Below are positions 1,969-44,811 of a DNA stretch of 64,000 nucleotides, one piece after another. Made by a program: the position numbers and the translations under genes. Position 1 is the first letter of the stretch. The number at the start of each line of letters is the position of its first letter. The DNA comes from Escherichia coli. GTDB lineage: Bacteria > Pseudomonadota > Gammaproteobacteria > Enterobacterales > Enterobacteriaceae. The stretch lies in the NCBI RefSeq assembly GCF_041248615.1, contig NZ_CP158426.1. One strand, 5' to 3'. Below the pieces are notes generated by a model, which saw nothing but the letters and a program-made list of their open reading frames with translations, was not told where the DNA came from and ran no database searches.

Positions 1969-2445
1969 ATGAAACTCATCAGTAATGATCTGCGCGATGG
2001 CGATAAGTTGCCGCATCGTCATGTCTTTAACGGCATGGGTTACGATGGCGATAATATTTCACCGCATCTGGCGTGGGATGATGTTCCTGCGGGAACGAAA
2101 AGTTTTGTTGTCACCTGCTTTGACCCGGACGCGCCAACCGGCTCCGGCTGGTGGCACTGGGTCGTTGTTAACTTACCCGCTGATACCCGCGTATTACCGC
2201 AAGGGTTTGGCTCTGGTCTGGTAGCAATGCCTGACGGCGTTTTGCAGACGCGTACCGACTTTGGTAAAGCCGGATACGGTGGCGCAGCGCCGCCGAAAGG
2301 CGAAACCCATCGCTACATTTTTACCGTTCACGCGCTGGATGTAGAACGTATTGATGTCGATGAAGGTGCCAGCGGCGCGATGGTCGGGTTTAACGTCCAT
2401 TTCCACTCTCTGGCAAGCGCCTCGATTACTGCGATGTTTAGTTAA
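1969..2445 (+). CDS. ybhB: PEBP/YbhB-family protein
   Basis: 158-aa ORF with RBS AGGAGG upstream; last host gene before attR. Confidence 0.9.
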   Translation: MKLISNDLRDGDKLPHRHVFNGMGYDGDNISPHLAWDDVPAGTKSFVVTCFDPDAPTGSGWWHWVVVNLPADTRVLPQGFGSGLVAMPDGVLQTRTDFGKAGYGGAAPPKGETHRYIFTVHALDVERIDVDEGASGAMVGFNVHFHSLASASITAMFS

Positions 2446-2535
2446 TCACTCTGCCAGATGGCGCTATGCCATCTGGTATCACTTAAAGGTATTAAAAACA
2501 ACTTTTTGTCTTTTTACCTTCCCGTTTCGCTCAAG

Positions 2536-2550
2536 TTAGTATAAAAAAGC
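2536..2550. other. attR core (lambda 15-bp common core, reverse orientation)
   Basis: Exact match to reverse complement of GCTTTTTTATACTAA, flanked by host sequence on the ybhB side and lambda P-arm sequence inside. Confidence 0.88.
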
Positions 2551-2694
2551 TGAACGAGAAACGTAAATGATATAAATATCAATATATTAAATTAGATTTT
2601 GCATAAAAAACAGACTACAAAATACTGTAAAACACAACATATGCAGTCACTATGAATCAACTACTTAGATGATATTAGTGACCTGTAACAGAGC
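2551..2694. promoter_or_regulatory. attP P arm (Int arm-type, IHF, Xis/Fis binding region) retained at attR
   Basis: AT-rich sequence adjacent to the core that matches my recollection of the lambda P arm. Confidence 0.6.
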
Positions 2695-2695
2695 A

Positions 2696-2737
2696 TTAGC
2701 GCAAGGTGATTTTTTGTCCTCTTGCGCTAATTTTTTG
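2696..2737 (+). terminator. tI/sib-like rho-independent terminator in the P-arm region
   Basis: Perfect 10-bp stem TTAGCGCAAG/CTTGCGCTAA with 15-nt loop followed by TTTTTT. Confidence 0.55.
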
Positions 2738-3227
2738 TCAACTCACTGGGTTAGTTGAATTTACAACCATGCTCAGTATCTCGATAAGCGCAGGGAGATG
2801 ATGCAGTGGTGGGCGGACTGGCTTGATGAAAGTGTGCTGTAATCCTCATATCCAACCTAAGAGATATGCACAATTTTGTGAATAAGATATTGAGAATTAG
2901 CAAAAGTTTTATTTTGCGTATCATCAATTCAGAATACAAAGTCACATGCTAATGTTCTGCATTGGTATCTTTTGCTTATCCATGTCTACATTATCGCCAA
3001 AATAATAGGTTTTGCCTATCAATTATTTGAATTACTTCCATGAAATTATAACGCACTTGTAATTTTTGATTATTTTTACCTCTCAAGTGTTTTGTTTCTT
3101 CTATCTCTTTGTATTTTTAGCGAAAGTATGCCATATTGCATTCTAATATAACGTGGCGTTGTTTCTGTTTAATGATTTAAATAGTTCAACATAATATTTG
3201 CTAACAAATTATATCCAAGCAAATCAT

Positions 3228-4373
3228 ATGATATTATCATTACAATATATTAGAGGAATAGCATCATTACTTGTTGTTTTATTCCACTTCAGATTCTTGC
3301 TAAATGAGCACTACTCTCAGAAAGATTTGGGTGACCTATTATTTGGGAATGGGCTGTCTGGAGTTGATATATTCTTCATATTAAGTGGATTTATCATCGT
3401 ATACTCAACAAGAAAGAAGGAAGTTAATGATACTTTCTCATTCTCAATTAGAAGAATATTTAGAATATACCCATTACTAATCACATGCTGTTGCATGTAT
3501 TACATAATAAACACTCAATTTCTAACCTATGCTACAGTTGAAAACTTTAGAACCTTACTTATTTCCATCATTCCATTAAATATAAACTGGAATGAAGGCG
3601 CTCCATTCTTTGCCTATAATCTTTTGTACCCGGCCTGGACGATAACATATGAAATTGGTTTCTATGTTTTTTTCGGGGTATCAATGTCTATTTCGCATAA
3701 ATACAGAACAATTATCTGTTCTGTTTTTATAATCATGGTGGTCTCATTTACACAATACTATGTAAATGGAAATATATCATTTTCAGGTGATGTTAGTGCA
3801 GGGTTATTTACAGATAACTGGTTATTAGGATATACAAATGTTATTACATCTCCAATGATGTATGAATTCGTTATTGGGATGTTTCTTTCTGAAATATTTA
3901 CAAACATCAACGAAAGCAAAAGTATTAAAAGGATACTTTCAAAGTATTCGCTTCAAATACTATGGATTTCATGTGGTATATCCATAATATTATTCATTAT
4001 CCAGCGACCTTATGGGCATGGATTGAATGGATTTGGGACTATGGCGATGATACTTATTGCATCATCATTAGTATATGAATACTGCAATATAACACCCAAA
4101 ATAAAAATATTTAATTTCCTTGGTGAAATATCATATTCTTTATATCTAATTCACGCCGTGATACTTGCTTTGTTCTTCTATTATAAGGCAGACCTTGCTG
4201 AAATTGGCATAACTGGTGGATTTTCTGTGTTTTTTTCCTTGGTTATTATCTCAATAACTGCATCATATCCAATATATATTCTCATTGAAAAGCCAATGAT
4301 AAATATAGGTAAACGTTTAATTGACAAGAGAAATAAGAGCATTAACAAAAAAGAAACCGAAATAACAGCGTGA
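3228..4373 (+). CDS. integral membrane acyltransferase, family 3 (putative O-antigen/polysaccharide O-acetyltransferase)
   Basis: Very hydrophobic multi-TM protein; N-terminal R/H motif YIRGIASLLVVLFH typical of acyltransferase family 3; ATG at 3228 chosen over the track's TTG at 3198; AT-rich codon usage. Confidence 0.7.
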   Translation: MILSLQYIRGIASLLVVLFHFRFLLNEHYSQKDLGDLLFGNGLSGVDIFFILSGFIIVYSTRKKEVNDTFSFSIRRIFRIYPLLITCCCMYYIINTQFLTYATVENFRTLLISIIPLNINWNEGAPFFAYNLLYPAWTITYEIGFYVFFGVSMSISHKYRTIICSVFIIMVVSFTQYYVNGNISFSGDVSAGLFTDNWLLGYTNVITSPMMYEFVIGMFLSEIFTNINESKSIKRILSKYSLQILWISCGISIILFIIQRPYGHGLNGFGTMAMILIASSLVYEYCNITPKIKIFNFLGEISYSLYLIHAVILALFFYYKADLAEIGITGGFSVFFSLVIISITASYPIYILIEKPMINIGKRLIDKRNKSINKKETEITA

Positions 4374-4410
4374 TAATGACAAAGTTAGTGCCGGGATACC
4401 CCGGCACTAT

Positions 4411-5748
4411 TTAATCTATTTCGTAAGTGACAGTGATTATCACTTCTGCATTATTACCCAAAACATTTTGATATATATTCATATTACCTGATAATGTAGT
4501 TGCTCCAGTAAGAGTTATATAACTACTATTTGCATCAACCCTTGGAAGTAAAGCGGTAACTGCTGTTGTTAAATTATTATAGTAGCCTGTACTTCCAACA
4601 TATGCAGCTTTATTGCTTGATACATATGGTAACCCTCCAATTCTGAAACCATCTCCTGACCCAATTAAAGTTATACCAAGGTGACATGTTGCCGTTATGA
4701 TATTGCCACTCCTGACATAATTTCCTTTCTGCTGATAATATGTGGCATTACCACCTACAGTCGGAATCCAAACTCCAGTTTCTATATCACCACATGACCA
4801 GTCTTCTGCTGTTGTTAGTTTTCCAGTAACAATAAATTTACTTCCACCACCAGAATTATAAGGAACAAAAATTGGATTTATTCTTGCATAAGTGTTACCG
4901 GTCTGCTCATTAAGATCATTTCTATCAATAAGAACTTGACCATTTTCGAAGTTTGAAATCTGGCAGTCTGTTACACTCCAGTCTCTTAACTTCACATCAG
5001 CATCCATGACACCAATAAGCTTACCAGCATTACCAATTTTTTCTTTATGCATATTTACATACACATTTCTTACCGTAACAGACTGAGGGAACAGATAATT
5101 AGCAGGATTAGTTTTATCACTTAAAACAGATATTACCCAAGGTCTGTATTGAGTACTTACTTCACAATAAAATCCATCAATAAGCGTTCCAGATGCCGCT
5201 GGCCCAAGTAGTATTCCACCTGTAGAGTGATGCGCACTACCTCCAATTACTCTCCCCTTAACGCAGTTAATATAGGCAAAACATCCTAAATCTTGATTGT
5301 CATAGGCTGACATAGCACAGTCTCTAACTGTTACTCGAGAATTTCCTCCGTCATAAGCTGAGCCATCAGTTTTCTTACCAACTATTGATATAAAGTTACC
5401 AATAGCAACTCGACTATAAAAAGTTTTTTTATAACACCCCTCAATTAAAATATCCCAGTTTTCAAACTGAGCATATATATCATAAATGCTGGCATTCCCA
5501 TAATCTATGAAATCACAATATCTTATTTTCGGCGTATAAACGGCACTTTTTATCTTTATACCACCTAATGCTCTCTCCCCACCTGTGAATCTAATGCCAG
5601 TAACGGTGTAATCGCCTTGATAGAAATTATCTGCGGTAGGATTATTTTCGTCAGAATCATCACCCAATATAATAGCAAATTCACTCCCTGAATAATTAAT
5701 TGTCGCCCCCTTATTTGAATATATAGTTACAGGTCTTATAAACTCCAA
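4411..5748 (-). CDS. beta-helix-like protein of unknown function (possible tailspike/depolymerase-like domain); lacks an ATG start, possibly frameshifted or truncated
   Basis: 445-codon ORF whose first codon is TTG; Gly/Asn/Thr/Val-rich repetitive sequence; in-frame upstream TGA; upstream out-of-frame ATG (5831) separated by an A7/T7 tract. Confidence 0.45.
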   Translation of the reverse strand: MEFIRPVTIYSNKGATINYSGSEFAIILGDDSDENNPTADNFYQGDYTVTGIRFTGGERALGGIKIKSAVYTPKIRYCDFIDYGNASIYDIYAQFENWDILIEGCYKKTFYSRVAIGNFISIVGKKTDGSAYDGGNSRVTVRDCAMSAYDNQDLGCFAYINCVKGRVIGGSAHHSTGGILLGPAASGTLIDGFYCEVSTQYRPWVISVLSDKTNPANYLFPQSVTVRNVYVNMHKEKIGNAGKLIGVMDADVKLRDWSVTDCQISNFENGQVLIDRNDLNEQTGNTYARINPIFVPYNSGGGSKFIVTGKLTTAEDWSCGDIETGVWIPTVGGNATYYQQKGNYVRSGNIITATCHLGITLIGSGDGFRIGGLPYVSSNKAAYVGSTGYYNNLTTAVTALLPRVDANSSYITLTGATTLSGNMNIYQNVLGNNAEVIITVTYEID

Positions 5749-6140
5749 AGAATTACTTATCAGATACTCTCCATAAGGAAAAAAATCTCAACTGGTGGTG
5801 AGTACTTTGGTCTGGAGTTTACGTAATTCATAATATTGATTACACCAACATCATAGATAATCGCCACCTTCTGGCGAGGAGCTCCTGATGCAATTAATCG
5901 CCAGGCCTACGCCCATTATTCATGGGTAAATTTTGGACGGAGCCCCCAATTCCATCCTCAATTCTCCCTCGCACTGAGGAGTAGTAAGTGCAATTATTTA
6001 AAAAATCGCAAACAGAATATTATCATTTATTCTTGCATTCTGTTAATTAAAACCACACATAAAAACGTTGATACTTGATAAGTAAGTAGAGTATTATTAA
6101 TGGTTTTAATAACGAACCTTTTAATCATGAGAAGCCTCAA

Positions 6141-7166
6141 ATGACTAGTACCAATAACATAACAAGAAAAAAAATGGATGGAGTAACAATCTTAAGATTT
6201 ATAGCTGCTTTTTATGTGTTTATTTTTCACATTAACATGAGAGTCCCCGTTAATTTTGGAGAGCTTATTAATAAAACCATTAGCAATGGCGTCATTGGCA
6301 TGAGTATTTTCTTCATGCTTTCTGGTTTTGTTTTGACTTATAATTACTATGGTTCCTTGTCAAACAATTACTTCAGGAAGCGAATAGCAAGAATATTTCC
6401 AGCCTATTTATTTTGTGGGCTTTTAACCCTCCCATTTTTGTTATCCAGCGATGCAAGCTTTTTAAAAATGATTGCAAGCATATTCTTGTTTGTTACTGGA
6501 ATGCAATCATGGATTTATCAGACCTTCGATTTTTGGAATTTTAGCGGTACCTGGTCAATATCAGTGGAATTGTTTTTTTATGCCCTGTTTCCATTTTTGA
6601 TAAAAAACATCAACAAAAACAATGTAATTTATGTTTTACTTTTTTCATATTTATCTTCAGCATTATTAATCCCATTATCTGATATAATTCAGGGACCTGT
6701 AGTTTGGTCCGTATATTACGCAACTCCAATATACAGGTTACCAGAATTTGTGGTGGGCGTCTGTATCGCAATACTTTTTTTAAATGGCTATCGTGTTAAC
6801 CATTATACATGGCTATTAAGCATTTTATTATTTCTGTATGCTACCACCCAGCAAAACAATAACTCCATGGGGGTGAACTATCTCACAATTCCTGCGATAT
6901 CAATTATGTTATTGCACCTGGCAAAAATCAACATCAAAAACAACATTGCAAACAGAGCGATCATTTACTTTGGAGATATAAGTTATTCGTTTTATTTGAT
7001 GCAATTACCTATATTATATTACCTGGATCATAATAAAAACTCATTTATTCTTAACTATGGTCTTTTTAGCTGGCTTGTACTTTTTGTTATTAATACTGCA
7101 ATGGCATCATTATCTTATCACTTTCTGGAGAAGAACGATAAAATCAGAAAAATAATTACATCCTGA
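6141..7166 (+). CDS. integral membrane acyltransferase, family 3 (second copy, divergent sequence)
   Basis: 341-aa hydrophobic protein with motif ILRFIAAFYVFIFH; AT-rich. Confidence 0.7.
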   Translation: MTSTNNITRKKMDGVTILRFIAAFYVFIFHINMRVPVNFGELINKTISNGVIGMSIFFMLSGFVLTYNYYGSLSNNYFRKRIARIFPAYLFCGLLTLPFLLSSDASFLKMIASIFLFVTGMQSWIYQTFDFWNFSGTWSISVELFFYALFPFLIKNINKNNVIYVLLFSYLSSALLIPLSDIIQGPVVWSVYYATPIYRLPEFVVGVCIAILFLNGYRVNHYTWLLSILLFLYATTQQNNNSMGVNYLTIPAISIMLLHLAKINIKNNIANRAIIYFGDISYSFYLMQLPILYYLDHNKNSFILNYGLFSWLVLFVINTAMASLSYHFLEKNDKIRKIITS

Positions 7167-7167
7167 T

Positions 7168-7193
7168 TTATTAGGGGGGTACCCCCCTAATAA
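7168..7193. terminator. 26-bp perfect palindrome, candidate bidirectional terminator between convergent genes
   Basis: TTATTAGGGGGGTACCCCCCTAATAA lies between the stop of the + strand acyltransferase (7166) and the stop of the - strand tail fiber assembly gene (7208). Confidence 0.5.
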
Positions 7194-7207
7194 TACACCA
7201 CATAATT

Positions 7208-7603
7208 TCAACGTATTATCTCTGGCCTTTCTGGCCAGGTTATTTCTGGAATTAAGGACAAATCCACTGACATTAAATTATTAACATATTCCTTCCATAA
7301 CAAAAGATTGTTCTTGTTATTTTCACTTATAATACCGAGTAACAAATCTGACTGCCAGTTCATAATTAAACCATTAGCACTATCCAGCAGACACTGTCTT
7401 TCATTCTCTGCCTCACGAAGTAATTCATCATGTGTTTTTGGCGGCTGCGTAGGTGACGAAAGCTTTCCCTTATCATAGAACCAACCAATTCTTACATTAT
7501 CGGATACAGGTATAACTAACGCATTAGTTGGTTGCCAGGCACTCTCACCATCCCATACCGCAATATTGGTAACAACACCATTTTCTATAACGGCATAGTT
7601 CAT
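7208..7603 (-). CDS. tail fiber assembly protein (Tfa-like chaperone)
   Basis: Protein MNYAVIENGVVTNIAVWDGE... resembles the Tfa family N-terminus; immediately downstream of the tail fiber gene with TGATG overlap. Confidence 0.7.
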   Translation of the reverse strand: MNYAVIENGVVTNIAVWDGESAWQPTNALVIPVSDNVRIGWFYDKGKLSSPTQPPKTHDELLREAENERQCLLDSANGLIMNWQSDLLLGIISENNKNNLLLWKEYVNNLMSVDLSLIPEITWPERPEIIR

Positions 7604-8712
7604 CACGCATACTCCCAAATGATTGCAATACCAGCCATTCCGCTACCTCCGGCACGCTGCTGCGTCGCTCCACCGTAGACACAGGCACCACCGCCTCCAC
7701 CACCATGGCCATTAGCATTAATACCTTCGCCTACAATGGCTTGTGACCCAGCCCCCGCACCAAGGATTGAATCGCCGCCAGGCCCCCCCATCGCCAGACT
7801 GCCGGAATACCGAACGCCTGGTGAGCTATAACCGCTTCCAGACCCGATAATATTTGCACCTGTAAATCCCGGCTCAGTATATGCTCCATACGGACCAACA
7901 ACCCCTGGAGCAGTTCCTTCAGCAAGAACATCCCCACCAAGGCCACCTTTGGCAATTATGGTATTGCCGAAAGAGGTTGTTCCCCCGGGAGCACCAACCG
8001 ACGCACTTGCACCAGTGCCACCATATCCGATTGTCACAGTAGTTACGGTTGGATTATCCACGCGAGCTTTAACATACTCCCCGGACATCCCCCCGCCACC
8101 ACAAGCAGCATTATTGGGATAACCGACCTGACAACCACCACCGGCCCCACCACCACCAACAATTTCAACAATAATAAATTTTGTGCCTTTTGTCGGAGTG
8201 TATGTACCTGAGCTTTTAAACACCTGACACTGTATAAGCCTCCCGGAGCCATCTCCCAAACCAAGGTATGCGAGAATGTCATCAATAGTATTTTTGCCGA
8301 TAATATCACGGCCTACCTTAGTGAGGTCGGTCTGCGCAGCCTTATCTGTGCCAGTGAAATACGGTAGCTTATTTGCACCTGTCGCCAGTCCGGCCAGAGC
8401 CGTCAACGTGGCATCAAGCGCCTGATAATCCTTACCGAATGCAGAAGACATTTTGGTAATGAATCCATTCAGGTCGCCATCATCCAATACATCCAGTCCG
8501 CTTTTGTTTGCTGTGTACTGTGCAAGTGCTGCAGCAATAAAGCTGGCCTGCCGAATAACCTTATTGACTTGCGCACTGGAGGCTTTCCCTGCTGTAAATC
8601 CGGATAAAAGCGCGGGCAACGCTTCCCATTCCTCCTGCGATATAACATTGGCATTTCGATCCGTTGCAAACGCTTTAAAGTCATTTTTCGCCATCAGAGT
8701 AATACTCCCCAT
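7603..8712 (-). CDS. tail fiber protein with glycine-rich C-terminal domain
   Basis: 369 aa; conserved fiber N-terminal region then GGxGG-rich repeats; follows baseplate genes. Confidence 0.7.
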   Translation of the reverse strand: MGSITLMAKNDFKAFATDRNANVISQEEWEALPALLSGFTAGKASSAQVNKVIRQASFIAAALAQYTANKSGLDVLDDGDLNGFITKMSSAFGKDYQALDATLTALAGLATGANKLPYFTGTDKAAQTDLTKVGRDIIGKNTIDDILAYLGLGDGSGRLIQCQVFKSSGTYTPTKGTKFIIVEIVGGGGAGGGCQVGYPNNAACGGGGMSGEYVKARVDNPTVTTVTIGYGGTGASASVGAPGGTTSFGNTIIAKGGLGGDVLAEGTAPGVVGPYGAYTEPGFTGANIIGSGSGYSSPGVRYSGSLAMGGPGGDSILGAGAGSQAIVGEGINANGHGGGGGGACVYGGATQQRAGGSGMAGIAIIWEYA

Positions 8713-29841: not shown

Positions 29842-29917
29842 TGGTGCTGGTTAACGGACTTGAACCGCTACCCATTCGCTTACAAGGCGACTGCTCTACC
29901 ATTGGAGCTAAACCAGC
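29842..29917 (-). tRNA. tRNA-like gene, anticodon UGU (Thr) by manual folding
   Basis: 76-nt cloverleaf: acceptor GCTGGTT/AACCAGC, D arm GCTC-CAATGGTA-GAGC, anticodon loop CTTGTAA (U33, A37), T arm AGCGG-TTCAAGT-CCGTT, 3' ACCA; one anticodon-stem mismatch. Confidence 0.55.
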
Positions 29918-29922
29918 ATGTT

Positions 29923-29997
29923 TGGCGGGACAGCGTGGACTCGAACCACGATAAGAAGGTTAACAGCCTTCCGTAATGACCTTTATACGACTGACCC
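29923..29997 (-). tRNA. tRNA-like gene, anticodon GUU (Asn), possibly degenerate
   Basis: Anticodon arm GAAGG-CTGTTAA-CCTTC and T arm CGTGG-TTCGAGT-CCACG are perfect; acceptor stem has one mismatch and the D stem is short. Confidence 0.45.
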
Positions 29998-35670: not shown

Positions 35671-36321
35671 ATGAATACACAACTGATGGGTGAGCGTATT
35701 CGCGCTCGCAGAAAAGAACTTAAGATTAGGCAGGCTGCCCTTGGCAAGATGGTTGGCGTGTCTAATGTTGCTATTTCCCAATGGGAGCGTTCTGAAACTG
35801 AGCCCAATGGCGAAAACCTATTGGCTTTAGCCAAGGCTTTACAGTGCTCCCCTGATTACTTGTTGAAAGGAGAAGATAGTCTTTCAAACATTGCCTATCA
35901 CAGCAGGCATGATCCAAGAGGTTCGTATCCTCTAATTAGTTGGGTAAGCGCAGGATGTTGGATGGAAGCTGTAGAGCCATATCATAAGCGTGCAATAGAT
36001 AACTGGTACGATACAACCGTAGATTGTTCAGAAGATTCGTTTTGGCTGGACGTAAAGGGTGATTCGATGACGGCTCCAGCCGGTCTTAGCATCCCGGAAG
36101 GGATGATAATACTAGTCGATCCTGAAGTAGAACCTCGTAATGGGAAGCTGGTAGTGGCAAAGCTCGAAGGAGAAAACGAGGCAACTTTCAAGAAGTTAGT
36201 TATTGATGCTGGCAGAAGGTTTCTAAAACCACTTAACCCACAATATCCGATGATTGAGATCAACGGGAACTGCAAAATCATCGGTGTAGTTGTCGATGCA
36301 AAAATAGCAAACCTTCCATAA
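35671..36321 (+). CDS. cI: CI repressor (HTH plus S24 LexA-like autopeptidase domain)
   Basis: 216 aa; N-terminal HTH ...QAALGKMVGVSNVAISQWER...; C-terminal domain ...GDSMTAPAGLSIPEGMIILVD...KIIGVVV resembles the 434/21-type repressor. Confidence 0.85.
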   Translation: MNTQLMGERIRARRKELKIRQAALGKMVGVSNVAISQWERSETEPNGENLLALAKALQCSPDYLLKGEDSLSNIAYHSRHDPRGSYPLISWVSAGCWMEAVEPYHKRAIDNWYDTTVDCSEDSFWLDVKGDSMTAPAGLSIPEGMIILVDPEVEPRNGKLVVAKLEGENEATFKKLVIDAGRRFLKPLNPQYPMIEINGNCKIIGVVVDAKIANLP

Positions 36322-36633: not shown

Positions 36634-36933
36634 ATGGCAGTAGTCATTACATATCTGGCTGACGATAACGCCAGAAATCGCCGCAGAGCACGCAGACAGG
36701 CTCAACGTGAACAGGCAATGCAAGAACAGCGACTGGCGCGAAAGATTGCGCTAAAGCTCTCTGGTTGCGTCAGAGCAGATAAAGCAGCATCACTCGGAAG
36801 CCTTCGCTGCAAGAAGGCAGAAGAGGTCGAGAGTAAACGGAATCGTATTTACTACCGCAAGCCACGCAGTGAAATGGGTGTGACTTGTGTTGGTCGCCAG
36901 AAAATGAAATTAGGCAGTAAGCCACTTATTTGA
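36634..36933 (+). CDS. N: antiterminator N (phage 21-like)
   Basis: 99 aa with N-terminal arginine-rich motif NARNRRRARRQAQRE and C-terminus ...YYRKPRSEMGVTCVGRQKMKLGSKPLI resembling N proteins. Confidence 0.75.
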   Translation: MAVVITYLADDNARNRRRARRQAQREQAMQEQRLARKIALKLSGCVRADKAASLGSLRCKKAEEVESKRNRIYYRKPRSEMGVTCVGRQKMKLGSKPLI

Positions 36934-36944
36934 GAGGAATTAAT

Positions 36945-37568
36945 ATGTCATCAATCCGCTTAACTACGAGAATGAAAGAGGAAATCGCTCGTAACGCTTT
37001 AATTAAGTCTGGGGTTTTCACTGAACTTGAAGAAGTAACAAAGTTAAAGAACCAGCTTGCACTTGACGCCAGAGTTATTGCGTTTGGCGGTAAAAAGAAA
37101 ACTGAGGAAGTGGATCAGTTATCATCCAAGTTGGTAGCTATAAGTGAAGAACTTGAAAAGATGGGATGTTCATTTTACTCATACGATGTTCGTTCTACTT
37201 CAATTTATCTGACTGTATCTGGCAGAAGGGTTGGATGGCTTTCATATGGGAAAGACGGCAACGGCGAAGATATATTGCTCCCTGCTCCGAACAAAGATAA
37301 ATGCATGTTTAGCGCAGAACACGAAATAACAAAAAGGTTTGATGAAATCTGCGCATTGCAACAAAAACTTGAAGCCAAGAAAAAGGATATCGAATCAAAT
37401 GTATGGGCTGCTTTGAACTCAGTCACAACAGTTAAGCGACTTATTGAAGTTTGGCCTGAAAGCAAAGAGTTGCTACCAAAAGAAGCAGATAAAGCAAGTA
37501 CAGCACTTCCTGCTTTACGGGTAGAAGATTTGAATAAGATGATTGGACTTCCTTCCGAGGCCGCATAG
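36945..37568 (+). CDS. hypothetical protein (207 aa) immediately downstream of N
   Basis: ATG at 36945 with RBS GAGAGGA; no motif I can assign; followed by a terminator. Confidence 0.5.
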   Translation: MSSIRLTTRMKEEIARNALIKSGVFTELEEVTKLKNQLALDARVIAFGGKKKTEEVDQLSSKLVAISEELEKMGCSFYSYDVRSTSIYLTVSGRRVGWLSYGKDGNGEDILLPAPNKDKCMFSAEHEITKRFDEICALQQKLEAKKKDIESNVWAALNSVTTVKRLIEVWPESKELLPKEADKASTALPALRVEDLNKMIGLPSEAA

Positions 37569-37925: not shown

Positions 37926-38059
37926 GCACTGTGTATTCATTCCAACGAGTGAATACACGGAGCAATGTCGCTCGTAACTAAACAGGAGCCGACTTGTTCT
38001 GATTATTTGAAATCTTCTTTGCCCTCCGATGTGAGGGCAATTTTTTTGATGGAGGATAT

Positions 38060-39025
38060 ATGAGTGAAGTAACAGATTTAGTTGTTATTGAAAAAGCAAA
38101 TGCAATGACTGTATTTCAGTCTGCCGACCAGATTGAAGAAATCCTTCAAAAGGTTGAACGTGAAGTTATGTCCTTTGTGCCTGATATCACAACGGCAAAG
38201 GGCAGAAAGGAGATCGCTTCTCTGGCGTATAAAGTTGCGCAGACGAAAACATATCTCGATGGTCTTGGCAAAGACCTTGTTGCTGAACTGAAGGAAATTC
38301 CAAAGCTAATTGATGCCAACCGCAAGACAGTGCGTGATCGCCTTGATGAGCTGAAAGCCAAGGCACGCCAGCCTCTTACTGATTATGAGGAAGAACAGGC
38401 GCGGATTAAAGCCGAAGAGGAAGCTAAGGCAGCAGCTGAAGCCCTCGCAAAGCAAATTGAGTCTGACCATGAAATAGCGATTTTGATGGATCGCGAATTT
38501 GACCGCAAAAGAGAAGAGGCAAGACTCAAAGTGGAGCAGGAAAAGCGAGAGCATGAAGAACTCTTAAAAAGAGAAGCTGAAGAGAAAGCCAGAGCAGAAG
38601 CCGAAGCAAAGGCAAAAGCCGAAATTGAAGCAGCAGCAAGGCGAGAAGCAGAAGCTAAGGCAGCAGCGGAACGTGCAGAGCGTGAACGCATTGAAGCCGA
38701 GCAACGAGCACAGCGCGAAGCAAAAGAGGCAGCAGAACGAGCTGAAAGAGAAAAGCAGGCAGCAATTGAAGCAGAACGCCGAAAAGCACAGGAGGAGGCT
38801 GAACGAATCCGTCGCGATGCTGAAGCAAAAGAGCAAGCCAGAATAGCAGAAGAAAAAAGAATCAAGGAAGAAGAGCGTAGAGCAAAGGATAAAGCTCACC
38901 GGAAAGAAGTAAATAACAAAATACTTGCTGACCTTATCAAGGTTGGCGCATCAGAAGATGTTGCTAAAAATATCATAACAGCCATCGTAAAAGGCGAAGT
39001 ATTCGCAACAAAAATAACCTACTAA
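38060..39025 (+). CDS. coiled-coil protein with E/K/A/R-rich low-complexity core, probable recombination-module component
   Basis: 321 aa; central ~150 aa of AEAKAKAEIEAAARREAEAKAAAERAER-type repeats; upstream of the Sak4-like ATPase. Confidence 0.5.
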   Translation: MSEVTDLVVIEKANAMTVFQSADQIEEILQKVEREVMSFVPDITTAKGRKEIASLAYKVAQTKTYLDGLGKDLVAELKEIPKLIDANRKTVRDRLDELKAKARQPLTDYEEEQARIKAEEEAKAAAEALAKQIESDHEIAILMDREFDRKREEARLKVEQEKREHEELLKREAEEKARAEAEAKAKAEIEAAARREAEAKAAAERAERERIEAEQRAQREAKEAAERAEREKQAAIEAERRKAQEEAERIRRDAEAKEQARIAEEKRIKEEERRAKDKAHRKEVNNKILADLIKVGASEDVAKNIITAIVKGEVFATKITY

Positions 39026-39049
39026 TAAAACCAACATAAGGAACCACCC

Positions 39050-39196
39050 ATGATTTACGCAATCGCGGGAGGCGCTCGCATGGGTGCCTTCCAACTAAAT
39101 GAATCTTTACTTGAACGAATCACCCGTAAATTACGTGACGGATGGAAACGCCTTATCGACATACTTAATCAGCCAGGAGTCCCCAAAAATGGATAA
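39050..39196 (+). CDS. small hypothetical protein (48 aa)
   Basis: ATG at 39050 with RBS AAGGAACC; below the ORF-track length cutoff. Confidence 0.3.
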   Translation: MIYAIAGGARMGAFQLNESLLERITRKLRDGWKRLIDILNQPGVPKNG

Positions 39197-39302
39197 AACA
39201 CTTATGGCTATCCAGACTAAATTCACTATCGCCGCTTTTATTGGCGATGAAAAGATGTTTCGTGAGGCCGTCGAAGCCTACAGAAAATGGAGGTCAAAAT
39301 GA
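39189..39302 (+). CDS. small hypothetical protein (37 aa)
   Basis: ATG at 39189, in frame with track ORF 39099..39302. Confidence 0.25.
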   Translation: MDKTLMAIQTKFTIAAFIGDEKMFREAVEAYRKWRSK

Positions 39303-39487
39303 TTCCGGTAGAACTGGCGAAAACTCCAGAGTTAAGTCGATTAAAAAGAGAATATCACATTGCTGAGGCTCGTTACTGGCGTAAAGCGGGAGATAAATCA
39401 AAGAAACAACTTTGCTTATGGCAGGCACAAAGAGAGCGCATGAATGAGCGTGAGTTTCTTTCCTCCCCATCCGAATTACCATTCTGA
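39299..39487 (+). CDS. small hypothetical protein (62 aa)
   Basis: ATG at 39299 (MIPVELAKTPELSRLKREYH...), overlaps previous stop. Confidence 0.35.
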   Translation: MIPVELAKTPELSRLKREYHIAEARYWRKAGDKSKKQLCLWQAQRERMNEREFLSSPSELPF

Positions 39488-39495
39488 GGCAAATT

Positions 39496-40176
39496 ATGGG
39501 AACTGCGACATTAATACTCGGTGAATCTGGCACCGGAAAATCAACCAGCATGAGAAATATCAATCCAGAGGAAGCAATACTTATAAAACCAATAGGCAAG
39601 CCGCTTCCATTTAAATCAAAAGACTGGCTGGCATGGGATGCCAGAGCAAAAAAAGGAACCGTAGTTACCACTGACAAATGGGACGTAATAGTTGCCGTAA
39701 TTAAGCGTGCTCACGAATACGGGAAAAGAATCGTTATTGTTGATGACTTCCAGTATGTGATGAGCAATGAGTTTATGCGCCGCTCAGAAGAAAAATCGTT
39801 TGATAAATTCACTGAGATAGGCCGCCACGCATGGGAGGTGATTAAGGCTGCACAGGATGCACCTGATGACCTGAGAGTCTATTTTCTTGCGCACACCGAA
39901 GAAACCCCTATGGGGCGTGTGAAAATGAAGACTATCGGCAAAATGCTGGACGAGAAAATCACTGTCGAAGGCATGTTTACTATAGTTCTTCGCACCCTTA
40001 CCCGCGATGACCAGTTCTTTTTCACCACGAAAAACAACGGTGCAGACACTGTTAAATCCCCAATGGGAATGTTTGATTCTAATGAGATTGATAACGATCT
40101 CTCTTTCGTCGATGCCACTGTTTGTGATTACTACGGCATCAATAATGTTCATCAAATTAAGGAAAACGCCGCATGA
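39496..40176 (+). CDS. Sak4-like RecA-fold ATPase (phage single-strand annealing/recombination protein)
   Basis: 226 aa; Walker A LILGESGTGKST near the N-terminus and Walker B-like IVIVDD; size and position match Sak4-type recombinases. Confidence 0.65.
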   Translation: MGTATLILGESGTGKSTSMRNINPEEAILIKPIGKPLPFKSKDWLAWDARAKKGTVVTTDKWDVIVAVIKRAHEYGKRIVIVDDFQYVMSNEFMRRSEEKSFDKFTEIGRHAWEVIKAAQDAPDDLRVYFLAHTEETPMGRVKMKTIGKMLDEKITVEGMFTIVLRTLTRDDQFFFTTKNNGADTVKSPMGMFDSNEIDNDLSFVDATVCDYYGINNVHQIKENAA

Positions 40177-40760
40177 GCAACGTGATTTTTACTTATAACG
40201 AAGAAGCAGCACTGACCGCAGGGCAAGGTGGTTTTATTAACGAAACTGGTGCTCATATCATTACCATTACTGAAGCAGAACTAAAGCAATCAGAAAAAGG
40301 AGCCAAATTTATTGAGTTTTCTGGCGAATCTGACGACGGACGTAAAATCCAATATCTTAGCGTCTGTGTTCAGAAAAATGACGGAACGGAAAACAAATTT
40401 GGCGCAAATGTCGTTCACGCCATGATGGGGTGTGCCGGGATTGGACAATTAACGCAACATATGGTTTCCGCCAGTAAATTTGTTGCTCCTGAGTTTCATG
40501 GAAAGAAAATCGGGTTAGTGCTCCAGAAAGTATTAACCACAAACAAAAAGACTGGCGCAGACAGCTACCAGATGGAAATACGCATCCCGTTTATTGCACA
40601 AACAGGTCAAACCCTTAAAGAAAAGGCGGAAGGCAAGCAACCAGAAACTATCGCCAACATGGTTGCCAGCCTCAAAGATAAAGACAATCGCTCTAAAAAC
40701 GTAAGCCAGAATCATGCAGATGATTATGGTTACAGCCAGAACGATTACCCTCCATTCTAG
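40173..40760 (+). CDS. putative single-stranded DNA-binding partner protein with SSB-like acidic C-terminal tail
   Basis: 195 aa ending ...HADDYGYSQNDYPPF, resembling the SSB C-terminal tip (DDDIPF); coupled to the Sak4-like gene. Confidence 0.5.
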   Translation: MSNVIFTYNEEAALTAGQGGFINETGAHIITITEAELKQSEKGAKFIEFSGESDDGRKIQYLSVCVQKNDGTENKFGANVVHAMMGCAGIGQLTQHMVSASKFVAPEFHGKKIGLVLQKVLTTNKKTGADSYQMEIRIPFIAQTGQTLKEKAEGKQPETIANMVASLKDKDNRSKNVSQNHADDYGYSQNDYPPF

Positions 40761-40785
40761 ATTATTGCAAAATAAGGATTCCATT

Positions 40786-41082
40786 ATGCCAGCGCCTCTG
40801 TATGGTGCGGATGACCCGCGCAATTGCTCCGGTAGCTCCAAGGCGGAGGTGCTGGAAAATATCAAAAACAATTTCGACGCGTTTCTTGCTCTGACACCAG
40901 AAACAAAAGCAGAACGGATGTACCGACGCGATATACAACTCGCGCTAAAACAGGAGAAGGACCGAACAAACGAAACAGCAATGAGACCGTTGCGAAAAGC
41001 GACAATAGACAAATTCCCTGAATATATCGACCCGCGCCTGCGTAATTACCGCTCACGCTATGGCGCTATCAGTAATGACTGA
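40786..41082 (+). CDS. hypothetical protein (98 aa)
   Basis: ATG at 40786 with RBS AAGGA; track ORF starts earlier at a non-ATG codon. Confidence 0.4.
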
Positions 41083-41092
41083 GGAATTTACA

Positions 41093-41260
41093 ATGAGAGG
41101 ACTTGCATACAATCCCGGCATTCTTCCGGCAGAAATGATTATTCGCCAACGCGTAAAGCCAATGCCATCGAGAGAGGAATTGCTTAAGAGAAATTCTTTT
41201 CCGTCAGTAAATCAAAACAAATATCTGAATGCGATGTGGCGCAAAGGAGGCAAGCAGTGA
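41093..41260 (+). CDS. small hypothetical protein (55 aa)
   Basis: ATG at 41093 ([19 protein letters not shown]...). Confidence 0.3.
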
Positions 41261-43544: not shown

Positions 43545-43763
43545 ATGTACTTGACACTTCAGGAGTGGAATGCACGCCAGCGACGCCCAAGAAGCCTTGA
43601 AACAGTTCGTCGATGGGTGCGCGAATGCAGGATATTCCCTCCTCCGGTTAAGGATGGAAGAGAATATCTGTTCCACGAATCAGCGGTAAAGGTTGACTTA
43701 AATCGACCAGTAACAGGTAGCCTTTTGAAGAGGATCAGAAATGGGAAGAAGGCGAAGTCATGA
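43545..43763 (+). CDS. xis: excisionase
   Basis: 72 aa MYLTLQEWNARQRRPRSLETVRRWVRECRIFPPPVKDGREYLFHESAVKVDLNRPVTGSLLKRIRNGKKAKS, lambda Xis; overlaps int start. Confidence 0.92.
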   Translation: MYLTLQEWNARQRRPRSLETVRRWVRECRIFPPPVKDGREYLFHESAVKVDLNRPVTGSLLKRIRNGKKAKS

Positions 43764-44811
43764 GCGCCGGGATTTACCCCCTAACCTTTATATAAGAAAC
43801 AATGGATATTACTGCTACAGGGACCCAAGGACGGGTAAAGAGTTTGGATTAGGCAGAGACAGGCGAATCGCAATCACTGAAGCCATACAGGCCAACATTG
43901 AGTTATTTTCAGGACACAAACACAAGCCTCTGACAGCGAGAATCAACAGTGATAATTCCGTTACGCTACATTCATGGCTTGATCGCTACGAAAAAATCCT
44001 GGCCAGCAGAGGAATCAAGCAGAAGACACTCATAAATTACATGAGCAAAATTAAAGCAATAAGGAGGGGGCTGCCTGATGCTCCACTTGAAGACATCACC
44101 ACAAAAGAAATTGCGGCAATGCTCAATGGATACATAGACGAGGGCAAGGCGGCGTCAGCCAAGTTAATCAGATCAACACTGAGCGATGCATTCCGAGAGG
44201 CAATAGCTGAAGGCCATATAACAACAAACCCTGTCGCTGCCACTCGCGCAGCAAAATCAGAGGTAAGGAGATCAAGACTTACGGCTGACGAATACCTGAA
44301 AATTTATCAAGCAGCAGAATCATCACCATGTTGGCTCAGACTTGCAATGGAACTGGCTGTTGTTACCGGGCAACGAGTTGGTGATTTATGCGAAATGAAG
44401 TGGTCTGATATCGTAGATGGATATCTTTATGTCGAGCAAAGCAAAACAGGCGTAAAAATTGCCATCCCAACAACATTGCATGTTGATGCTCTCGGGATAT
44501 CAATGAAGGAAACACTTGATAAATGCAAAGAGATTCTTGGCGGAGAAACCATAATTGCATCTACTCGTCGTGAACCGCTTTCATCCGGCACAGTATCAAG
44601 GTATTTTATGCGCGCACGAAAAGCATCAGGTCTTTCCTTCGAAGGGGATCCGCCTACCTTTCACGAGTTGCGCAGTTTGTCTGCAAGACTCTATGAGAAG
44701 CAGATAAGCGATAAGTTTGCTCAACATCTTCTCGGGCATAAGTCGGACACCATGGCATCACAGTATCGTGATGACAGAGGCAGGGAGTGGGACAAAATTG
44801 AAATCAAATAA
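43741..44811 (+). CDS. int: tyrosine integrase (lambda Int)
   Basis: 356 aa MGRRRSHERRDLPPNLYIRNNGYYCYRDPRTGKEFGLGRDRRIAITEA... with catalytic R...HxxR...Y region; adjacent to attL. Confidence 0.95.
   Translation: MGRRRSHERRDLPPNLYIRNNGYYCYRDPRTGKEFGLGRDRRIAITEAIQANIELFSGHKHKPLTARINSDNSVTLHSWLDRYEKILASRGIKQKTLINYMSKIKAIRRGLPDAPLEDITTKEIAAMLNGYIDEGKAASAKLIRSTLSDAFREAIAEGHITTNPVAATRAAKSEVRRSRLTADEYLKIYQAAESSPCWLRLAMELAVVTGQRVGDLCEMKWSDIVDGYLYVEQSKTGVKIAIPTTLHVDALGISMKETLDKCKEILGGETIIASTRREPLSSGTVSRYFMRARKASGLSFEGDPPTFHELRSLSARLYEKQISDKFAQHLLGHKSDTMASQYRDDRGREWDKIEIK

What the first reader, a model, noticed from the sequence alone, without database searches (positions are those of the whole stretch)
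38060..40760. Non-Red recombination module: coiled-coil protein, Sak4-like ATPase and an SSB-tail protein
In place of exo/bet/gam there is a 321-aa protein with an extended E/K/A/R-rich coiled-coil core, a 226-aa P-loop ATPase (LILGESGTGKST) of the Sak4 type, and a translationally coupled 195-aa protein ending in ...NDYPPF, which mimics the acidic C-terminal tip of SSB proteins. The SSB-like tail suggests the third protein recruits host factors or acts as the cognate single-strand binding partner.
Basis: partly seen in the sequence, partly recalled or inferred. Interest (0 to 1): 0.5.

Follow-up and report, generated by a model that had tools for sequence, protein, structure and literature searches.

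The report
HK620-type Sak4–SSB phage recombination module
This stretch of an E. coli lambdoid prophage carries the Sak4 recombinase and its partner SSB, which were characterised experimentally in phage HK620, so that part is ordinary; the coiled-coil gene upstream is a separate, poorly understood gene that sits beside phage recombination genes of every type.

Summary
The three ORFs are real and lie at the stated coordinates. The 226-aa ATPase is 225/226 identical to HK620 HkaL (Sak4). The 195-aa protein is 194/195 identical to HK620 HkaK (SSB-HK620) and has the same NDYPPF tail. Hutinet et al. 2018 showed that this pair performs ATP-dependent single-strand annealing, that the SSB stimulates it, and that the last six residues are needed for Sak4 to load on SSB-coated ssDNA. 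That part is already known.

The published module is hkaM-sak4-ssb-abc2.

The 321-aa coiled-coil protein is not a Sak4-specific partner. HK620 lacks it. In 80 E. coli viral contigs with a 98-99% identical N-terminal 150 aa, the recombinase downstream is Rad52-type (31), Erf (31), Sak4 (8) or RecT (6). In Pseudomonas, Klebsiella, Serratia, Shewanella, Alcaligenes and Vibrio phages, homologues abut Erf, Bet, full Red, or Sak4 modules.

It belongs to a large family with no Pfam model (phrog_1376) that includes phage D3 orf53. A 2025 preprint reports that orf53 independently sensitises DNA to the Gabija defence, as Exo-Erf and Mu Gam do.

I infer a role at DNA ends or against RecBCD that does not depend on recombinase type. 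This is unproven.

The parts
38019..38040 (+). Terminator-like G+C-rich hairpin followed by a T-run, 20 bp upstream of the coiled-coil gene. It is probably a tL-type terminator that is read through under N antitermination.
   Evidence: 8-pair stem, 5 G-C pairs, then TTTTTTT. HK620 annotates tL2-type terminators at the equivalent place upstream of cIII. Function is inferred.
38060..39025 (+). 321-aa coiled-coil protein of the phage D3 orf53 / phrog_1376 family, labelled 'TolA' in databases. It has a conserved helical N-domain (about 1-112), an E/K/A/R-rich coiled coil of variable length, and a conserved basic C-domain (about 274-321). It is not part of the published Sak4 module.
   Evidence: phrog_1376 E=6.5e-108 over the full length. 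No Pfam family. 52% identity over 119 aa to D3 orf53, E=1e-37. AF2 model with mean pLDDT 84.7. Family alignment A1 has invariant R49, K63, G70, R88 and E110.
39050..39196 (+). cIII (FtsH-inhibitory lysogeny factor), 48 aa.
   Evidence: 37 identical residues in a global alignment of this 48-aa protein with the 46-aa HK620 cIII. RefSeq label.
39099..39302 (+). kil (septation inhibitor). The HK620-style start is at 39189 (37 aa). A longer 67-aa ORF starts at 39099.
   Evidence: Pfam Lambda_Kil E=2.6e-20 and phrog_2461 E=5.8e-41. 35/37 identical to HK620 Kil.
39299..39487 (+). hkaM, 62 aa, function unknown. It is the first gene of the published HK620 recombination module.
   Evidence: 61/62 identical to HK620 HkaM. 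phrog_1723 E=2e-33. PMC5928155 calls it an orphan of unknown function.
39496..40176 (+). sak4 (hkaL): a core-only RecA-like, ATP-dependent single-strand annealing protein, 226 aa.
   Evidence: 225/226 identical to HK620 HkaL; the only difference is D43E. phrog_2872 E=3.9e-108. Pfam AAA_24 above the gathering score. Biochemistry in PMC5928155.
40173..40760 (+). ssb (hkaK): phage SSB-HK620, 195 aa, with the C-terminal NDYPPF tail. It is translationally coupled to sak4 by an ATGA overlap.
   Evidence: 194/195 identical to HK620 HkaK; the only difference is E153V and the tail is identical. phrog_743 E=1.8e-66. Function of the tail in PMC5928155.
40786..41082 (+). abc2: a P22-type anti-RecBCD protein (RecBCD modifier), 98 aa. 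It is the last gene of the module.
   Evidence: Pfam Anti-RecBCD_p2 E=3.1e-35 and phrog_656 E=1.1e-44. Only 60/98 identical to HK620 HkaJ, so a mosaic junction lies just after ssb.

Best explanation
The interval holds two separable things inside the N-antiterminated early-left operon of a lambdoid E. coli prophage.

**1. The HK620-type recombination module hkaM-sak4-ssb-abc2.**
- SSB-HK620 coats single-stranded DNA. Once bound, it exposes its C-terminal NDYPPF tail.
- The Sak4 monomer is a RecA-core ATPase. With ATP it is recruited through that tail onto SSB-coated ssDNA and anneals complementary strands.
- It does not perform strand exchange.
- Abc2 modifies host RecBCD.
- These steps were shown experimentally for proteins that differ from the ones here by one residue each.

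**2. An upstream gene for a D3 gp53-family coiled-coil protein.**
- This is a near-constant neighbour of phage recombination modules of every annealase type. It is not a Sak4-specific partner.
- Its mechanism is inferred. The N- and C-terminal conserved parts probably form a helical head at the base of a long coiled coil.
- I think it most likely acts on linear phage DNA ends or on RecBCD access to them, whichever annealase is present.
For: **Module identity**
- Sak4 is 225/226 identical, SSB 194/195 and HkaM 61/62 to the HK620 proteins.
- DNA identity to HK620 is 97.8% across cIII-abc2.
- Profile matches: phrog_2872 at 3.9e-108, phrog_743 at 1.8e-66, and AAA_24 above its cutoff.
- Published function is in PMC5928155. 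[quoted passage not shown] Recombineering rose 15-fold with sak4 alone and 210-fold with the whole module, an effect fully restored by sak4+ssb. Deleting the six tail residues reduced it 10-fold. The Sak4-SSB-ssDNA ternary complex needs both ATP and the tail.

**The coiled-coil gene is separate**
- HK620 lacks it.
- Of 306 phage records that match the region, only one covers at least 80% of it.
- Only 15 of 5426 complete E. coli genomes carry the whole arrangement, while 2161 carry parts of it.
- In 80 E. coli viral contigs whose N-terminal 150 aa are 98-99% identical, the gene is followed by Rad52+SSB (31), Erf+SSB (31), Sak4+SSB (8) or RecT+Gp157 (6).

**It is linked to recombination modules in general**
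- All 80 Pseudomonas loci have Erf or Bet plus a YqaJ exonuclease next to it, and 72 of them lie within 100 bp.
- Klebsiella phage Mulock: coiled-coil gene, then Gam-Bet-Exo. Serratia phage Eta and Shewanella phage 1/41: coiled-coil gene, then DUF3799 nuclease and Bet. Alcaligenes phage Piluca: coiled-coil gene, then Bet-Exo.
- Vibrio phages have Sak4-SSB-CC, CC-Sak4-SSB, or Erf-YqaJ-CC, where CC is the coiled-coil gene.
- Metagenome contigs show RecT-YqaJ-x-CC and YqaJ-CC-RNaseT.

**Phenotype of a homologue**
- D3 orf53 is this family.
- In PMC12407980, orf53 is by itself sufficient to license Gabija targeting of phage and transduced plasmid DNA. It is redundant with Exo-Erf and behaves like Mu Gam, and the authors interpret this licensing as exclusion of RecBCD from DNA ends.
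Against: **For the module:** nothing substantive. Pfam's DUF669 model, which the 2018 paper cites for this SSB, did not hit in the current Pfam scan even at E<=10.

**For the proposed role of the coiled-coil protein:**
- No biochemistry exists.
- The preprint gives no mechanism for gp53 and counts only three of its six licensing factors as end-binding systems. gp53 is not among the ones it names.
- The protein is acidic overall (pI 5.6). Only the 48-residue C-domain is basic (pI 9.7).
- No DNA-binding fold or any specific fold match was found.
- The gene co-occurs with dedicated anti-RecBCD genes: abc2 here and gam in Mulock. It is therefore not a simple substitute for them.
- D3 tolerates its deletion.
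- In E. coli phages, cIII and kil lie between it and the module, so part of the synteny could simply reflect conserved operon order.
- My locus sets are redundant. Each is drawn from close relatives, so the counts are not independent events.
Confidence: 0.85

Rival explanations
1. One reading: the coiled-coil protein, Sak4 and the SSB-tail protein form one co-functional three-protein recombination machine. The coiled-coil protein would act as a dedicated mediator or scaffold for Sak4.
For: The three genes lie in one operon on one strand. In Vibrio phage Seahorse and in contigs L172-L174, the coiled-coil gene directly abuts a Sak4-SSB pair.
Against: - HK620 and most Sak4-SSB phages lack the coiled-coil gene at this position.
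- sak4+ssb alone gave the full recombineering effect of the module.
- The same coiled-coil gene (98-99% identical N-terminal 150 aa) precedes Rad52, Erf and RecT cassettes far more often than Sak4 (68 against 8 of 80).
- Three unrelated genes lie between it and sak4 here.
Confidence: 0.07
2. The coiled-coil protein has nothing to do with recombination or DNA ends. It would be an accessory early gene (for example host takeover, exclusion, or an envelope or 'TolA-like' function) that happens to sit at a conserved mosaic junction next to the recombination cassette.
For: - Databases label it TolA or 'cell envelope biogenesis'.
- In E. coli phages, cIII and kil separate it from the module.
- D3 deletions that remove it are well tolerated.
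- No nucleic-acid-binding fold was detected.
- The protein is acidic overall.
Against: - The TolA label rests on a low-complexity E/K/A-rich match. No TolA or other Pfam domain is present.
- Adjacency to annealase and exonuclease genes holds across at least seven host genera, with the gene either upstream or downstream of the pair and often within 100 bp.
- D3 orf53 alone gives the same Gabija-licensing phenotype as Exo-Erf and Mu Gam.
Confidence: 0.3
3. The coiled-coil protein is the Proteobacterial homologue of the Firmicutes DUF1351 or Sipho_Gp157 proteins. Those occupy the same position upstream of erf-ssb and sak4-ssb modules.
For: Position is analogous. PMC8093625 reports DUF1351, DUF2483, Mu Gam-like and Sipho_Gp157 genes immediately upstream of erf-ssb and sak4 modules in Firmicutes phages, and argues that they have analogous functions. 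The size is similar and the protein is helical and coiled-coil in character.
Against: - No Pfam hit to PF07083, PF05565 or Gam for the window protein, even at E<=10 on the N-domain.
- No such hit for any of 56 diverse family members.
- A real Sipho_Gp157 gene sits after RecT in the same E. coli contigs that already carry the coiled-coil gene (L009). The two are therefore distinct and can co-occur.
Confidence: 0.1

Closest known systems
Phage HK620 recombination module hkaM-hkaL(sak4)-hkaK(ssb)-hkaJ(abc2) (Clark 2001; Lopes 2010; Hutinet 2018, PMC5928155)
   Same: Same gene order and spacing, and the same sak4/ssb ATGA overlap. Sak4 is 225/226 identical, SSB 194/195 with an identical NDYPPF tail, and HkaM 61/62. 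DNA is 97.8% identical over cIII-abc2.
   Different: Abc2 is a different allele (60/98). The cIII N-terminus differs. HK620 has hkaQ/hkaP and terminators upstream of cIII, where this prophage has the coiled-coil gene.
Escherichia phage APC_JM3.2 (MG197996) and 15 complete E. coli genomes, e.g. NZ_LT599825
   Same: The whole arrangement of coiled-coil gene, cIII, kil, hkaM, sak4, ssb and abc2 is present. Identity is 97.9% over 98% of the 38000-40800 query for APC_JM3.2, and 97.4-99.7% over 100% of the 38000-41100 query for the eight listed genomes.
   Different: None of substance. These are the same mosaic combination, annotated only as 'TolA / ATP-binding protein / DUF669'.
Pseudomonas phage D3 orf53 (gp53), a Gabija-licensing factor (Hong et al. 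2025 preprint, PMC12407980)
   Same: Same protein family as the 321-aa protein: 52% identity over the N-domain with E=1e-37, the same three-part architecture, and both match phrog_1376. Both lie just upstream of the phage recombination genes.
   Different: D3 gp53 is 354 aa and has an extra segment after the N-domain (alignment A1). In D3 it directly abuts erf-exo rather than cIII-kil-hkaM-sak4. Its phenotype was measured in Pseudomonas, and nothing has been tested for the E. coli protein.
Lambda Red (gam-bet-exo) and P22 arf-erf-abc1-abc2 modules
   Same: Same position in the early-left operon between kil and the int-proximal genes, and the same overall task of single-strand annealing recombination plus handling of RecBCD. 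abc2 is homologous to P22 abc2.
   Different: The annealase is a RecA-core ATPase rather than a Rad52-fold or Redbeta protein. It needs ATP and its own SSB. The module encodes no exonuclease. No Bet, Exo or Gam homologue is present in the window.
Firmicutes DUF1351 / Sipho_Gp157 / Mu Gam-like genes upstream of erf-ssb and sak4-ssb (PMC8093625)
   Same: Analogous position relative to annealase-SSB pairs, whatever the annealase family.
   Different: No detectable sequence relationship. A true Gp157 gene co-occurs with the coiled-coil gene in some E. coli contigs.

Membership tests
Sak4 (core-only RecA-like single-strand annealing proteins; Lopes 2010, PHROG 2872/124) | Profile match to the Sak4 family over the full length | tested here: met
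   phrog_2872 E=3.9e-108, residues 1-220 against profile positions 1-218 of 219. Pfam AAA_24 at 30.2 bits against a cutoff of 27.
Sak4 (core-only RecA-like single-strand annealing proteins; Lopes 2010, PHROG 2872/124) | Small single-domain P-loop ATPase (about 200-250 aa) with Walker A and a Walker B-like acidic strand | tested here: met
   226 aa. GESGTGKS at residues 9-16 and IVIVDD at 79-84, read from the translation.
Sak4 (core-only RecA-like single-strand annealing proteins; Lopes 2010, PHROG 2872/124) | Near identity to an experimentally characterised member | tested here: met
   225/226 identical to HK620 HkaL; the only difference is D43E.
Sak4 (core-only RecA-like single-strand annealing proteins; Lopes 2010, PHROG 2872/124) | ssb-type gene adjacent (about 80% of sak4 genes according to PMC5928155) | tested here: met
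   The ssb gene overlaps the sak4 stop codon by 4 bp. Frequency statement.
Sak4 (core-only RecA-like single-strand annealing proteins; Lopes 2010, PHROG 2872/124) | ATP-dependent ssDNA binding and annealing; no strand exchange | not testable with these tools
   Shown for the HK620 protein in PMC5928155. Inferred here from 99.6% identity.
HK620-type phage SSB (phrog_743; 'DUF669'; 'SSB-2' in PMC12315714) | Profile match to the family | tested here: met
   phrog_743 E=1.8e-66. 194/195 identical to HkaK.
HK620-type phage SSB (phrog_743; 'DUF669'; 'SSB-2' in PMC12315714) | Match to the Pfam DUF669 model | tested here: not met
   No Pfam family at E<=10 in the copy searched. RefSeq and GenBank annotators nevertheless label near-identical proteins DUF669, and PMC5928155 equates the two.
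HK620-type phage SSB (phrog_743; 'DUF669'; 'SSB-2' in PMC12315714) | C-terminal SSB-like tail NDYPPF that mediates Sak4 loading | tested here: met
   The tail sequence is identical. Its function was shown for HK620 and was not tested here.
Classical bacterial SSB (Pfam PF00436) | Sequence match to the SSB OB-fold family | tested here: not met
   No PF00436 hit and no PDB sequence hit. A true PF00436 SSB from contig L008 scores E=1.1e-38 with the same tool.
Lambda Red (Gam/Bet/Exo) | Homologues of Bet, Exo or Gam present | tested here: not met
   tblastn of lambda Bet, Exo and Gam, and of other Bet/YqaJ seeds, against the whole window found no hit at E<=1e-3.
D3 gp53 / phrog_1376 coiled-coil family | Full-length profile match, with conserved N- and C-terminal domains flanking a variable coiled coil | tested here: met
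   phrog_1376 E=6.5e-108, residues 1-321 against profile 1-362. Alignment A1 has invariant R49, K63, G70, R88 and E110, with H280 and the terminal Y nearly invariant. 5049 representative clusters at E<=1e-3.
D3 gp53 / phrog_1376 coiled-coil family | Homology to D3 orf53 itself | tested here: met
   BLASTP gives 52% identity over 119 aa with E=1e-37. The D3 locus is annotated orf53.
D3 gp53 / phrog_1376 coiled-coil family | Licenses Gabija targeting when expressed | not testable with these tools
   Reported only for D3 orf53 in P. aeruginosa.
TolA (database label for the 321-aa protein) | TolA domains (membrane anchor, TolA C-terminal domain) | tested here: not met
   No Pfam or NCBIfam TolA match. 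The label evidently comes from the E/K/A-rich low-complexity core. A transmembrane segment was not formally tested, but the N-terminus MSEVTDLVVIEKANAM... is not hydrophobic.
DUF1351 / Sipho_Gp157 / Mu Gam (positional analogues in Firmicutes phages) | Sequence match to PF07083, PF05565 or Gam profiles | tested here: not met
   No hit for the window protein or its N-domain at E<=10, nor for 56 family members at E<=0.01.

The most novel reading that the evidence does not exclude
The D3 gp53-type coiled-coil protein may be a widespread and so far unrecognised accessory component of phage recombination modules in Proteobacteria. The family has about 5000 clusters at 50% identity and no Pfam model. 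It would work whichever annealase is present (Sak4, Erf, Rad52, RecT or Bet), by acting on linear DNA ends or on RecBCD access to them. Its presence would then also predict sensitivity to Gabija-type defences in E. coli prophages.
Probability: 0.4. Interest if true: 0.55.

Novelty: already known. Interest (0 to 1): 0.2.

Why it matters
For the finding as posed, it matters little. The Sak4-SSB pair is a published, biochemically characterised system, and this prophage carries an almost identical copy.

The useful by-products are corrections and one lead:
- The functional module is hkaM-sak4-ssb-abc2, not the three ORFs listed.
- The 'TolA' label on the upstream gene is a low-complexity artefact.
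- That gene belongs to a very large, unnamed family that travels with recombination modules of all annealase types. Its only studied member, D3 gp53, was recently linked genetically to Gabija sensitivity.

If the family proves to act at DNA ends or on RecBCD, it would add a missing component to models of phage recombination. It might also affect the efficiency of recombineering toolkits built from these modules.

Tried and rejected
- **DUF1351 lead.** From memory I suspected the coiled-coil protein was a DUF1351 homologue. Pfam scans of the protein, of its N- and C-terminal parts, and of 56 diverse family members gave no such hit. A profile search with the N-domain alignment brought back only family members with no Pfam annotation. 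The lead is kept only as a positional analogy.
- **Fold searches.**
  - The full-length AF2 model had no PDB match at E<=0.001.
  - In BFVD it matched only unnamed viral proteins with 24-100% sequence identity to the query, most likely family members.
  - The afdb50 library was unavailable.
- **PDB sequence searches.** No usable hit for the N-domain profile, Sak4 or the SSB.
- **Related loci.** I used single-protein scans and sampled named phages instead, so my locus sets are redundant within each genus.
- **First classification pass.** The first HMM-based pass missed Rad52-type annealases. I fixed this after reading the ORFs and confirming them with Pfam.
- **PADLOC scan** of the coiled-coil protein and its neighbours found nothing relevant.
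- **NCBIfam** found nothing meaningful.


Full report
**1. What is in the sequence**

The window is a lambdoid prophage that best matches E. coli chromosomes (99.7% to NZ_LT599825 over 38000-41100). On the + strand, the early-left operon reads as follows:
- cI, 35671-36321
- an N-like antiterminator, 36634-36933
- an Nmad5-domain protein, 36930-37568
- small ORFs
- a terminator-like hairpin, 38019-38040
- the 321-aa coiled-coil protein, 38060-39025
- cIII, 39050-39196
- kil, 39189-39302
- hkaM, 39299-39487
- the 226-aa ATPase, 39496-40176
- the 195-aa protein, 40173-40760
- abc2, 40786-41082
- Ead/Ea22 and DUF551 proteins
- the integrase, 43741-44811

No Bet, Exo or Gam homologue exists in the window. 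The description leaves out the three genes in the 470-bp interval between the first and second ORF, and abc2 downstream.

**2. The ATPase and the tail protein are HK620 Sak4 and SSB-HK620**

- Megablast finds 97.8% DNA identity to phage HK620 from cIII to abc2.
- At protein level the ATPase is 225/226 identical to HkaL (D43E). The tail protein is 194/195 identical to HkaK (E153V), with an identical C-terminus. HkaM is 61/62 identical.
- Profile searches agree: phrog_2872 'Sak4-like ssDNA annealing protein' at 3.9e-108, phrog_743 'single strand DNA binding protein' at 1.8e-66, and Pfam AAA_24 above its gathering score.

Hutinet et al. 2018 (PMC5928155) worked on exactly these proteins. They reported the following:
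- Sak4 is a monomeric RecA-core protein that binds ssDNA and anneals complementary strands in an ATP-dependent way. It does not perform strand exchange.
- HkaK is a true, oligomeric SSB and a distant homologue of the N4, Lc-Nu and PhiAT3 SSBs.
- sak4 alone raises oligonucleotide recombineering 15-fold. The whole module (hkaM, sak4, ssb, abc2) raises it 210-fold, and sak4+ssb restores that effect completely.
- Deleting the last six residues (NDYPPF) lowers recombineering 10-fold.
- The Sak4-SSB-ssDNA ternary complex forms only with ATP and only with the tail.

The reading 'cognate single-strand binding partner' is correct. 'Recruits host factors' is not what was shown for the tail.

**3. The coiled-coil protein is a different matter**

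Sequence and structure:
- It matches phrog_1376 (function unknown) over its whole length.
- It matches nothing in Pfam, NCBIfam or PADLOC. The 'TolA' database label rests on its E/K/A/R-rich core.
- The family is very large: 5049 representative clusters at E<=1e-3 in the 50%-identity library.
- An alignment of 56 diverse members (A1) shows three parts:
  - a conserved N-domain of about 112 residues, with invariant R49, K63, G70, R88 and E110;
  - a coiled coil that varies in length and sequence;
  - a conserved C-terminal domain of about 48 residues, with H280 and the terminal Y nearly invariant.
- AlphaFold2 on this alignment (mean pLDDT 84.7) gives two long helices, 46-187 and 199-294. I read these as an antiparallel hairpin that would bring the two conserved ends together.
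- A spliced N+C 'head' construct folds confidently (pLDDT 90.6) into a helical bundle.
- Neither model has an informative structural relative, and no solved relative exists by sequence.
- A monomer prediction cannot tell a hairpin from a parallel dimer, so the hairpin is a model and not a result.

**4. Genomic context separates it from Sak4 and ties it to recombination modules in general**

- HK620 itself lacks the gene.
- Of 306 phage records that match the region, only APC_JM3.2 has the full arrangement.
- Only 15 of 5426 complete E. coli genomes have the full arrangement, although 2161 carry parts of it.

| Locus set | What lies next to the coiled-coil gene |
|---|---|
| 80 E. coli viral contigs (N-terminal 150 aa 98-99% identical) | Downstream of the coiled-coil gene and cIII: Rad52-type + classical SSB (31), Erf + SSB (31), Sak4 + HK620-type SSB (8), RecT + Sipho_Gp157 (6). 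Four contigs end too early to tell. abc2 follows the Rad52, Erf and Sak4 cassettes. |
| 80 Pseudomonas contigs | Erf or Bet-like annealase plus a YqaJ exonuclease in all 80; within 100 bp in 72 |
| Klebsiella phage Mulock | coiled-coil gene, then Gam-Bet-Exo |
| Serratia phage Eta | coiled-coil gene, a hypothetical gene, DUF3799 nuclease, a small gene, Bet |
| Shewanella phage 1/41 | coiled-coil gene, DUF3799 nuclease, Bet |
| Alcaligenes phage Piluca | coiled-coil gene, then Bet-Exo |
| Vibrio phage Seahorse and relatives | Sak4-SSB-CC, CC-Sak4-SSB or Erf-YqaJ-CC (CC = coiled-coil gene) |
| Metagenome contigs | RecT-YqaJ-x-CC and YqaJ-CC-RNaseT |

In E. coli the annealase cassette is exchanged between constant flanks, and the coiled-coil gene belongs to the upstream flank. 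Across genera it keeps company with whatever recombination module is present, sometimes upstream and sometimes downstream of it.

These sets are redundant within each genus, so the counts illustrate the pattern and are not statistics.

**5. The one piece of functional evidence**

The Pseudomonas phage D3 homologue is annotated orf53 and shares 52% identity over the N-domain (E=1e-37). Hong et al. 2025 (bioRxiv, PMC12407980) report the following:
- D3 escapes the Gabija defence only by deleting a block that includes orf51-52 (exo-erf), orf53 and orf66.
- orf53 alone restores Gabija targeting in trans.
- orf53 also sensitises a transduced plasmid and cross-complements an unrelated phage's escape mutant.
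- The escape mutants' resistance depends on host RecBCD.
- The authors' model is that licensing factors such as Exo-Erf and Mu Gam keep RecBCD off linear DNA ends.
- They give no mechanism for gp53, and the deletions are well tolerated.

**6. Most likely mechanism, with what is shown and what is inferred**

- Shown, for near-identical proteins: SSB-HK620 coats ssDNA. Its NDYPPF tail then allows ATP-bound Sak4 to load and anneal complementary strands.
- Established for the homologous P22 protein: Abc2 modifies RecBCD.
- Inferred by me, at roughly 40%: the coiled-coil protein acts at linear DNA ends or on RecBCD access, whichever annealase is present.
  - The basis is its persistent adjacency to annealase and exonuclease genes of five families, and the D3 gp53 phenotype it shares with Exo-Erf and Gam.
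  - Against this: the protein is acidic (pI 5.6) and only the C-domain is basic. No DNA-binding fold was found. It co-occurs with abc2 or gam rather than replacing them. It is dispensable in D3.
- Main rival, at roughly 30%: it is an unrelated accessory gene parked at a conserved mosaic junction.

**7. Comparison with known systems and verdict**

- The Sak4-SSB part is a member of the HK620 module in every testable respect.
- It differs from Red and P22 Erf modules in three ways. It uses a RecA-core ATPase, needs its own SSB, and encodes no exonuclease.
- The coiled-coil protein is a member of the D3 gp53 / phrog_1376 family. It is not TolA, and it is not detectably related to DUF1351, Gp157 or Gam, which occupy analogous positions in Firmicutes phages.
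- As posed, the finding is already known and only partly correctly delimited. Interest is low.
- The residual lead is the unnamed coiled-coil family.

Noticed in passing
window 36930-37568 (+): A 212-aa protein directly after the N-like antiterminator matches Pfam Nmad5 ('nucleotide modification associated domain 5') at E=1.7e-71, and phrog_1965 (function unknown). It occurs in only some of the related E. coli contigs.
   Followed up: no
window 40760-41082, compared with HK620 (L001 5184-5480): There is a sharp mosaic junction just after ssb. Sak4 and SSB are about 99.5% identical to the HK620 proteins, but Abc2 is only 60/98 identical. The mechanical ORF call for abc2 (40714) overlaps the end of ssb. 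The homology-supported start is 40786.
   Followed up: partly
L009 7652-9020 (E. coli viral contig), also L025 and L028: Some E. coli prophages with the same coiled-coil gene carry RecT followed by a true Sipho_Gp157 protein (Pfam E=1.4e-38). That family is known mainly from Firmicutes phages, where it sits next to annealase genes.
   Followed up: partly
window 29842-29997 (-): A tRNA-Thr(TGT) and tRNA-Asn(GTT) pair lies inside the prophage, on the strand of the late genes.
   Followed up: no
window 2001-8000: A block of markedly low G+C (0.36-0.38, against about 0.5 elsewhere) lies at the far end of the prophage's late region. It may be a tail-fibre, host-range or cargo region.
   Followed up: no
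window 38019-38040 (+): A strong terminator-like hairpin with a T7 run sits 20 bp before the coiled-coil gene's start, inside the N-dependent operon. This suggests that expression of the coiled-coil gene and everything downstream depends on antitermination.
   Followed up: no
L010, L056, L063, L065, L074, L084 (E. coli viral contigs): hkaM, the orphan first gene of the HK620 module, also occurs upstream of Rad52-type or Erf cassettes. Like the coiled-coil gene, it is therefore not Sak4-specific.
   Followed up: partly
window 40173-40760; Pfam: The literature and RefSeq call this SSB 'DUF669'. The Pfam copy searched here gave no hit at all, even at E<=10. The Vibrio phage Seahorse homologue also gave no hit at E<=0.1.
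   Followed up: no
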